Shown one piece after another: positions 1,069 through 1,164 of a DNA stretch of 4,448 nt; positions within the stretch are counted from its first letter, which is position 1; each line of letters starts with the position of its first letter. The stretch comes from a virus (lineage: Duplodnaviria; Heunggongvirae; Uroviricota; Caudoviricetes), in IMG/VR virus record IMGVR_UViG_2713896899_000010; one strand, written 5' to 3'. Position numbers and translations under genes: made by a program. The notes below the pieces were generated by a model that was not told the DNA's origin, made no database searches, and saw only the letters and a program-made list of their open reading frames with translations.

Positions 1069-1075
1069 GTAACAC

Positions 1076-1110
1076 CGCTCTTTATCAATCTGCACCGCCG
1101 ACAACGCGGT
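1076..1110 (+). promoter_or_regulatory. nutR-like antitermination site: boxA CGCTCTTTA (1076-1084), 9-nt spacer, candidate boxB hairpin ACCGC-CGACAAC-GCGGT (1094-1110)
   Basis: boxA consensus lies directly after the cro stop. A 5-bp stem with a GACAA-containing loop follows at boxA-to-boxB spacing. The hairpin is not lambda boxB (GCCCUGAAAAAGGGC). Confidence 0.5.
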
Positions 1111-1122
1111 AACTAATTAAGA

Positions 1123-1140
1123 ACTCATCGAAAGATGAGT
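1123..1140 (+). other. Stem-loop ACTCATC-GAAA-GATGAGT (7-bp stem, GNRA tetraloop); possible tR1-region structure
   Basis: Perfect inverted repeat seen directly. The downstream AUUAGUGAUUAUUUACC is U-rich but not a clean U tract, so an intrinsic terminator is uncertain. Confidence 0.3.
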
Positions 1141-1164
1141 ATTAGTGATTATTTACCTATGGAA

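What the first reader, a model, noticed from the sequence alone, without database searches (positions are those of the whole stretch)
1069..1160. Mosaic junction right after cro: lambda immunity joined to a non-lambda nutR/boxB and replication module
cI, the operators and cro are lambda-like to the cro stop codon. Immediately downstream the sequence diverges from my recollection of lambda. boxA is retained (CGCTCTTTA), but the hairpin at boxB position is ACCGC-CGACAAC-GCGGT, which contains the GACAA loop motif of P22-type boxB rather than lambda's GAAAAA loop. Lambda-type N is selective for its own boxB, so either the N gene (outside the window) is not lambda-type or antitermination at nutR is altered. 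Similarity to lambda resumes in the 3' part of cII and is lost again after its stop.
Basis: partly seen in the sequence, partly recalled or inferred. Interest (0 to 1): 0.5.

Follow-up and report, generated by a model that had tools for sequence, protein, structure and literature searches.

The report
P22-type nutR beside lambda-type immunity
The hairpin after cro is a P22-type antitermination site (nutR) joined to a lambda-like repressor cassette, an ordinary natural mosaic in E. coli prophages whose relatives all carry the matching P22-type N protein.

Summary
Ungapped lambda identity (92.5%) runs from the cI stop (54) through cro into boxA and ends at 1082. It returns only at 1410-1470 (3' end of cII / oop terminator) and 4402-4448.

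Positions 1076-1110 are the P22 nutR core. boxA is CGCTCTTTA. boxB ACCGCCGACAACGCGGT matches P22 nutR boxB at 17/17 bases, and boxA through boxB matches at 35/37.

The window's own N gene could not be recovered. However, every relative with the same cI/cro and enough left flank has N with the P22 arginine-rich motif (GNAKTRRHERRRKLAIERD) and a P22-type nutL boxB (GCGCTGACAAAGCGC).

In 120 viral contigs with lambda-type cro, nutR was HK97/H-19B-type in 56, lambda-type in 43, P22-type in 12 and other in 8. The N type matched the nutR type in all 68 classifiable cases.

The lambda-like part is therefore only the immunity cassette (operators, cI, cro), sitting inside a P22-type N/nut frame and followed by a non-lambda replication module. 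This is textbook lambdoid modular mosaicism, so interest is low.

Side finding: cII carries an ochre stop at codon 2 (1178-1180), seen in no relative examined.

The parts
54..767 (-). cI repressor, lambda type (237 aa, 12 substitutions relative to lambda cI)
   Evidence: Lambda homology begins exactly at the cI stop codon.
778..841 (.). OR3 (778-794), OR2 (801-817) and OR1 (825-841). OR3 and OR2 are identical to lambda. OR1 has one G->A change.
   Evidence: alignment of the OR region with lambda; sequence read directly
815..843 (+). pR promoter (TTGACT-17-GATAAT), the source of the transcript that carries nutR
   Evidence: same position as lambda pR
868..1068 (+). cro, lambda type (66 aa, one substitution, V55I)
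1063..1075 (+). Right boundary of the immunity cassette: the last cro codons, the stop codon and the linker (GCATAAGTAACAC). Unrelated cassettes converge here.
   Evidence: L004-L007 (different cI/cro) match from 1063 at 99.9%. At least 15 Cro types converge on GCnGCnTAAG.
1076..1084 (+). nutR boxA, CGCTCTTTA (P22/consensus form). Lambda identity ends at 1082.
1094..1110 (+). nutR boxB: stem 1094-1098/1106-1110, C.C at 1099/1105, loop GACAA 1100-1104. Identical to P22 nutR boxB.
   Evidence: PMC6023938 describes the 6C-12C pair of P22 boxB-right.
1123..1140 (+). Second hairpin, ACTCATC-GAAA-GATGAGT, at the position of the lambda tR1 hairpin (assigned by position only)
   Evidence: -9.5 kcal/mol, z = -6.4. 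Four unrelated hairpin families occupy this position behind the same nutR core.
1175..1474 (+). cII (CII family), interrupted by TAA at codon 2 (1178-1180). Its 3' end (1410-1470) is lambda-like.
1420..1450 (-). oop-type terminator on the minus strand, inside the lambda-like patch
   Evidence: lambda patch; P22 annotation of the equivalent site
1637..2413 (+). Replication initiator (HTH_36), non-lambda, with 24-bp iterons at 1928-1991
2521..4401 (+). Toprim/DnaB-like primase-helicase, non-lambda

Best explanation
Positions 1076-1110 are a P22-type N-utilisation site (nutR) on the pR transcript of a lambdoid E. coli prophage.

Proposed mechanism:
1. When cI repression is lifted, pR (815-843) transcribes cro and then nutR.
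2. boxA RNA (CGCUCUUUA) recruits NusB/NusE.
3. The boxB RNA folds into a 5-bp stem closed by a C.C pair and a GACAA pentaloop.
4. The arginine-rich motif of a P22-type N (gp24-like) protein, made from the pL transcript, binds boxB.
5. With NusA and NusG this makes RNA polymerase termination-resistant. It then reads through the tR1-like region (hairpin 1123-1140) into cII, the replication genes and the nin region.

The lambda-like DNA is only the immunity cassette: the operators, cI and cro. In relatives, OL and pL are lambda-like too. The cassette's right edge is at the cro stop/boxA. In relatives its left edge is the 14-nt CATCAGCAGGACGC at the start of the pL transcript. The cassette sits inside a P22-type N-nutL ... 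nutR frame, so N and both nut sites still match.

Shown here: the sequence identities, the breakpoints, the fold, and the strict co-occurrence of nutR type with N type.
Inferred: N binding, Nus factor recruitment, antitermination, the identity of tR1, and that this element's own unseen N gene is P22-type.
For: - boxB is 17/17 identical to P22 nutR boxB, and boxA through boxB is 35/37 identical.
- The fold matches that of P22's site.
- Lambda identity stops at 1082 and P22 identity covers 1063-1112.
- Ten prophages with the identical cI protein all have N with GNAKTRRHERRRKLAIERD and nutL boxB GCGCTGACAAAGCGC, as in P22.
- Five viral contigs, and E. coli CAU16175 with the identical junction, show the same.
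- Census of 120 contigs with this nutR core, 64 of which have at least 4.5 kb of left flank. Of those 64, 51 have the exact P22 ARM, most of the rest have near variants, 0 have the lambda ARM, 62 have the P22 nutL boxB, and 0 have the lambda boxB.
- Census of 120 contigs with lambda-type cro: the nutR type equals the N ARM type in 68/68 classifiable cases (33 HK97/H-19B, 26 lambda, 9 P22).
- P22 N binds both boxB-left and boxB-right, and the right site has the 6C-12C pair (PMC6023938).
- N specificity lies in its N-terminal part (bioRxiv 10.1101/2020.10.05.325894).
- nutR overlaps the Rho-loading region of tR1 in a lambdoid phage (PMC3526286).
Against: - The N gene and nutL of this particular element are not in the window, and its contig was not found in any collection.
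- The element carries a nonsense codon in cII, so some decay is possible and N could in principle be damaged.
- No binding or antitermination assay exists for this sequence context.
- The tR1 assignment rests on position and hairpin conservation only.
Confidence: 0.9

Rival explanations
1. Orphan or mismatched nutR. In this particular element N is lambda-type, absent or inactivated. The P22-type boxB would then be a non-functional remnant, or antitermination at nutR would be altered.
For: The window's own N is unseen. The cII nonsense codon hints that the prophage may be accumulating defects.
Against: There were 0 mismatched N/nutR pairs among 68 classifiable lambda-cro contigs. No lambda ARM occurred among 64 contexts of this nutR. 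All 16 relatives with the same cI/cro, this nutR and enough flank have a P22-ARM N. The nutR core in the window is intact.
Confidence: 0.06
2. The real N-binding hairpin is the second one (1123-1140, GAAA loop), acting as a lambda-like GNRA-fold boxB. The GACAA hairpin would be incidental.
For: It is the more stable hairpin (-9.5 kcal/mol, z = -6.4) and has a GNRA tetraloop.
Against: Behind the same nutR core this position holds four unrelated hairpins with loops GAAA, CAACGA, TGTATT and CCAC, so no N-specific loop is conserved. The GACAA hairpin is invariant in 118 of 118 contigs and sits at the canonical 9-nt distance from boxA. Lambda has its tR1 hairpin at the equivalent position. No lambda-type N accompanies it.
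Confidence: 0.02
3. The junction is an assembly chimera joining reads from two different prophages at a shared repeat.
For: The window as a whole has no match above 97.6% in one piece. Its two halves match different relatives best.
Against: The same cro/nutR junction occurs at 99-100% identity in at least 16 complete E. coli chromosomes. It also occurs in 7 independent viral contigs and 9 of the 10 prophages that carry the identical cI protein (L010-L012, L014-L019; L013 lacks this site). The two best-matching relatives overlap over 1063-1504, so no unsupported join exists.
Confidence: 0.01

Closest known systems
nutR of Salmonella phage P22 (NC_002371, 31937-31970) with its N analogue gp24
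   Same: boxB is identical (ACCGCCGACAACGCGGT). boxA is CGCTCTTTA. The spacing is the same and only 2 of 37 bases differ. The site lies between cro and the cII/c1 gene and is followed by a hairpin. Relatives' N proteins carry the identical arginine-rich motif and a P22 nutL boxB.
   Different: The flanking immunity genes are lambda-type rather than P22 c2/cro. The downstream hairpin and the cII gene are of a different sequence family. The host is E. coli. The replication module is an HTH_36 initiator plus primase-helicase, not P22 genes 18/12.
nutR of phage lambda (NC_001416, 38265-38281)
   Same: Same position after a nearly identical cro. It shares CGCTCTT of boxA and the same overall logic (boxA, spacer, boxB hairpin, tR1 hairpin, cII).
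   Different: Lambda boxB is GCCCTGAAAAAGGGC with a GAAAA loop, and lambda boxA lacks the third T. There is no sequence similarity from 1083 to 1409.
Wild phages with lambda immunity but a non-lambda N/nut system (HK97, mEp234, HK106; GenBank EF120456-EF120461, Degnan et al. 2007 Mol Microbiol 64:232, cited from memory and from the record annotation)
   Same: Same kind of mosaic. Lambda-type cI/cro/operators are 93% identical to the window up to boxA (1087), then a different nutR with a GACAA-loop boxB and a matching non-lambda N. The records annotate boundary sequences at the cassette edges.
   Different: Their nutR is HK97/H-19B-type: boxB TCGCTGACAAAGCGA, a 22-nt spacer, and N with the RSRRRER motif. 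The window's nutR is P22-type. No record in the phage collection carries the lambda-cro/P22-nutR junction.
Stx2a-converting phages such as Stx2_EH0505 (LC616031)
   Same: nutR through cII is 98.4% identical to window 1061-1500. N has the P22 ARM and nutL has the P22 boxB.
   Different: Their immunity cassette is different: a 235-aa cI and an unrelated Cro.

Membership tests
P22-type nutR (N-utilisation site) | Lies on the pR transcript between cro and the cII-family gene | tested here: met
   cro 868-1068, nutR 1076-1110, cII start 1175
P22-type nutR (N-utilisation site) | boxA CGCTCTTTA about 9 nt upstream of boxB | tested here: met
   1076-1084 with a 9-nt spacer; unique in the window, 0 of 200 shuffles; the P22 alignment agrees
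P22-type nutR (N-utilisation site) | boxB hairpin with a GACAA pentaloop; the right-hand site is closed by C.C over a 5-bp stem | tested here: met
   17/17 identical to P22 nutR boxB; fold; 6C-12C described in PMC6023938
P22-type nutR (N-utilisation site) | A cognate N protein with the P22 arginine-rich motif encoded in the same element | not testable with these tools
   N lies outside the window and the source contig was not found. The feature is met in all relatives with the same cI/cro and in 68/68 of the census.
P22-type nutR (N-utilisation site) | A matching nutL (boxB GCGCTGACAAAGCGC) on the pL transcript | not testable with these tools
   Outside the window. Present in relatives.
P22-type nutR (N-utilisation site) | N- and Nus-dependent readthrough of downstream terminators | not testable with these tools
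   Needs a reporter or in vitro transcription assay
Lambda-type nutR | boxB GCCCUGAAAAAGGGC (GAAAA loop) recognised by the lambda N motif | tested here: not met
   No such sequence in the window. Lambda identity ends at 1082.
HK97/H-19B-type nutR | boxB UCGCUGACAAAGCGA about 22 nt from boxA, paired with an N carrying RSRRRER | tested here: not met
   The window differs from HK97/mEp234 immediately after CGCTCTTT
Lambda immunity group (imm lambda cassette) | cI, cro and operators of lambda sequence type | tested here: met
   cI 225/237 identical, Cro 65/66, OR3 and OR2 identical, OR1 has 1 change
Lambda immunity group (imm lambda cassette) | Functional homo-immunity with lambda | not testable with these tools
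   Needs plating of lambda on a lysogen

The most novel reading that the evidence does not exclude
The conserved nutL and nutR cores, kept identical by the need to match one N protein, may act as homology arms. The right arm would include the Ala-Ala-stop codons GCnGCnTAAG at the end of otherwise unrelated cro genes. Whole immunity cassettes could then be swapped between them without breaking antitermination. At least 15 Cro types sit in the same P22-type frame, and the lambda cassette sits in at least three different N/nut frames. On this reading the regulatory RNA sites themselves set the recombination breakpoints of lambdoid immunity regions.
Probability: 0.4. Interest if true: 0.3.

Novelty: new member of a known kind. 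Interest (0 to 1): 0.15.

Why it matters
The result gives a clean natural example of N and its two nut sites staying matched while the immunity cassette between them is exchanged. It shows that lambda's own immunity cassette more often travels with non-lambda antitermination systems in sequenced prophages. Among 120 viral contigs with lambda-type cro, nutR was HK97/H-19B-type in 56, lambda-type in 43 and P22-type in 12.

For annotation, a lambda-like cI/cro does not predict the N/nut type, the cII type or the replication module. None of this changes current understanding of lambdoid phages.

Tried and rejected
**Finding the window's own contig**
- An exact 39-mer spanning the cII nonsense codon gave no hit in genome contigs, viral contigs or metagenome contigs.
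- The truncated 64-aa cII product is not on record.
- The exact primase protein occurs only with other immunity cassettes.
- The exact cI protein occurs in many prophages, none identical to the window.

**RNA family search**
- An Rfam scan of the whole window at E <= 1 found nothing. No Rfam family matched, so this says nothing for or against a nut site.

**Literature**
- Cocozaki et al. 2008 (boxB requirements of P22 N) and Degnan et al. 2007 are not held in the library.

**Readings considered and rejected**
- The second hairpin as the true boxB. Its sequence and loop are not conserved behind the same nutR core.
- An assembly chimera. The junction recurs in complete genomes.

**Other**
- Phage vB_EcoP-720R6, which appeared to cover most of the window, has a different cI and cro.

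Full report
**What the window is.** The 4448 bases are the early-right control region of a lambdoid E. coli prophage.
- cI: 54-767, minus strand.
- Operators OR3, OR2, OR1: 778-841.
- cro: 868-1068.
- An intercistronic regulatory stretch.
- A cII-family gene: 1175-1474.
- A 47-aa ORF.
- An HTH_36 replication initiator: 1637-2413.
- A Toprim/DnaB-like primase-helicase: 2521-4401.

**Checking the observation.**
- boxA CGCTCTTTA is at 1076-1084 and the hairpin ACCGC-CGACAAC-GCGGT is at 1094-1110.
- A boxA + spacer + GACAA arrangement occurs once in the window and in none of 200 shuffles.
- The 17-mer is unique even when 3 mismatches are allowed.
- As RNA it forms a 5-bp stem at -6.7 kcal/mol, the same structure as the P22 site.
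- Against lambda, the window aligns without gaps over 54-1082 at 92.5%. The only further matches are 1410-1470 (86.9%) and 4402-4448.
- Base by base, identity holds through CGCTCTT and then collapses.
- cI differs from lambda cI at 12 of 237 residues and Cro at 1 of 66. OR3 and OR2 are identical to lambda and OR1 has one change.

**What the hairpin is.** P22's annotated nutR reads CGCTCTTTACCAATCTGAACCGCCGACAACGCGGTAA. The window reads CGCTCTTTATCAATCTGCACCGCCGACAACGCGGTAA. Two bases differ in 37, and boxB is identical. A published analysis describes P22 boxB-right as closed by a 6C-12C pair and bound with high affinity by P22 N, as boxB-left is (PMC6023938). The window's site is thus a P22-type nutR, not merely something with a similar loop. 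boxA is also the 9-nt P22/consensus form rather than lambda's CGCTCTTA.

**Is N of the matching type?** N and nutL lie outside the window. The source contig could not be found by exact DNA or protein look-ups, so I used relatives.
- Ten prophages encoding exactly the window's cI protein all have an N protein beginning MTVIVYGKSTFAGNAKTRRHERRRKLAIERD. This carries the P22 gp24 arginine-rich motif.
- On their pL transcripts these prophages have a nutL with boxB GCGCTGACAAAGCGC, identical to P22 nutL.
- Their OL operators are lambda-like. The switch from lambda-like to P22-like sequence falls within the shared 14-mer CATCAGCAGGACGC at the start of the pL transcript.
- Five viral contigs with the window's Cro and nutR show the same N and nutL. 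So does E. coli CAU16175, which is 100% identical over 960-1160.

**Two censuses.**
- 120 IMG/VR contigs carry the P22-type nutR core, and 64 of them have at least 4.5 kb of left flank. Of those 64, 51 have the exact motif KTRRHERRRK and most of the others have near variants. None has the lambda motif, 62 have the P22 nutL boxB and none has a lambda boxB.
- 120 IMG/VR contigs carry lambda-type cro. Their nutR is HK97/H-19B-type in 56, lambda-type in 43, P22-type in 12 and another type in 8. Wherever an N motif could be identified, it matched the nutR type: 33 + 26 + 9 = 68 of 68.

HK97 and mEp234 are sequenced phages of the HK97/H-19B class. Their N carries the RSRRRER motif studied in H-19B (PMC3526286).

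**Where the junctions are.**
- Prophages L004-L007 have an unrelated immunity cassette (235-aa cI, 74-aa Cro) and match the window at 99.9% from 1063 to 4448.
- L017, L018 and L074 match 58-1504 at 99.2%.
- The right edge of the immunity cassette is therefore at the cro stop codon and boxA.
- Across the nutR census, at least 15 unrelated Cro types converge on GCnGCnTAAG (Ala-Ala-stop) just before boxA. After GCGGTAA the sequences split into four families of hairpin plus cII leader.
- The window's second hairpin (1123-1140, -9.5 kcal/mol, z = -6.4) belongs to one of these families. It occupies the position of lambda's tR1 hairpin. I read it as part of a tR1-like terminator region, by position only.

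**How it most likely works.**
1. After derepression, pR transcribes cro and nutR.
2. boxA recruits NusB/NusE.
3. boxB is bound by the arginine-rich motif of a P22-type N made from pL.
4. With NusA and NusG the modified polymerase reads through tR1 into cII, the replication genes and the nin region.

Shown here: the identities, breakpoints, fold and N/nut co-occurrence. Inferred from established knowledge of lambda, P22 and H-19B antitermination: the binding and antitermination steps. Also inferred: that this element's own N is P22-type.

**Rivals.**
- A mismatched or orphan nutR in this particular element cannot be excluded without the flanking DNA. It has no precedent among 68 classifiable relatives.
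- The second hairpin as the true boxB is rejected because its loop and stem are not conserved behind the same core.
- A chimeric assembly is rejected because the junction recurs in complete chromosomes.

**Comparison with known systems and novelty.** This is modular mosaicism of lambdoid phages. It is the same kind of arrangement as HK97 and mEp234, which have lambda immunity with a non-lambda N/nut system. Here the N/nut system is P22-type.
- No record in the phage collection carries the lambda-cro/P22-nutR junction: 0 of 50,697 with at least 80% coverage.
- The junction is present in at least 16 of 5,426 complete E. coli genomes.
- The identical cI protein is listed in 1,563 blocks of the assembly collection.

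It is a new member of a known kind, of low interest.

**Side observations.**
- cII codon 2 is TAA (1178-1180) where every relative examined reads GAA. The best complete-genome match over 1060-1300 is 99.2%. The next in-frame start is codon 36, so CII is probably null unless this is a sequencing error.
- The initiator gene contains 24-bp iterons at 1928-1991.
- Positions 4402-4448 are 97.9% identical to lambda, which marks the next module boundary.
- The N proteins of relatives are themselves mosaics: a P22 motif joined to either a P22-like or a lambda-like C terminus.

Noticed in passing
window 1175-1180 (cII codons 1-2): cII reads ATG TAA where every relative examined reads ATG GAA, an ochre nonsense at codon 2. 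The next in-frame start is at 1280 (codon 36), inside the DNA-binding region, so CII is probably null. The change also lies in the spacer of the predicted pRE promoter. No collection searched holds this variant, so it could be a real mutation or a sequencing error.
   Followed up: partly
window 1123-1140: A strong hairpin, ACTCATC-GAAA-GATGAGT (z = -6.4), lies 12 nt after boxB. Behind the same nutR core, other contigs carry three other, unrelated hairpins at the same place. The structure is conserved and the sequence is not. This is the position of lambda's tR1 hairpin.
   Followed up: partly
window 1060-1075 and loci L025-L144: At least 15 unrelated Cro proteins upstream of the P22-type nutR all end in Ala-Ala-stop, encoded by GCnGCnTAAG. 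The conserved linker therefore reaches into the last codons of cro.
   Followed up: partly
window 1928-1991: About 2.9 copies of a 24-bp unit (GGTGGGGCAGGAGCTGACC...) lie inside the HTH_36 initiator gene and are probably origin iterons. Relatives have initiators of 243, 258, 265 and 279 aa, and alignments break at 1928, 1973 and 2029, which suggests copy-number variation.
   Followed up: no
window 4402-4448: Directly after the primase-helicase stop codon the sequence is 97.9% identical to lambda (the ren-ninB gap) and 89% identical to the start of P22 ninA. This is another sharp module boundary.
   Followed up: no
window 825-841 (OR1); OL1 in L010-L019: OR1 carries a G-to-A change (TACCTCTaGCGGTGATA) relative to lambda. 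OL1 of the relatives with the same cI carries the same change (TACCACTaGCGGTGATA). This is a parallel operator substitution.
   Followed up: no
window 54-353 versus 354-767: The part of cI encoding the C-terminal domain is only 78-88% identical to lambda at the DNA level, whereas the N-terminal domain, the operators and cro are 94-100% identical. This hints at a further old junction inside cI.
   Followed up: no
L002, L017, L018, L024, L146 (N genes of relatives): The N proteins are themselves mosaic. All share the P22 arginine-rich N terminus. Some end like P22 gp24 (…AAGYRKSKQLTAR) and others like lambda N (…GVTCVGRQKMKLGSKPLI), which aligns to the RNA-polymerase-binding end of lambda N in PDB 6GOV.
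   Followed up: partly
window 1-53: Lambda similarity starts exactly at the cI stop codon. The DNA to its left is not rexA and also differs from the 145-aa ORF found there in most relatives with the same cI, whose alignments start at 48-60.
   Followed up: no
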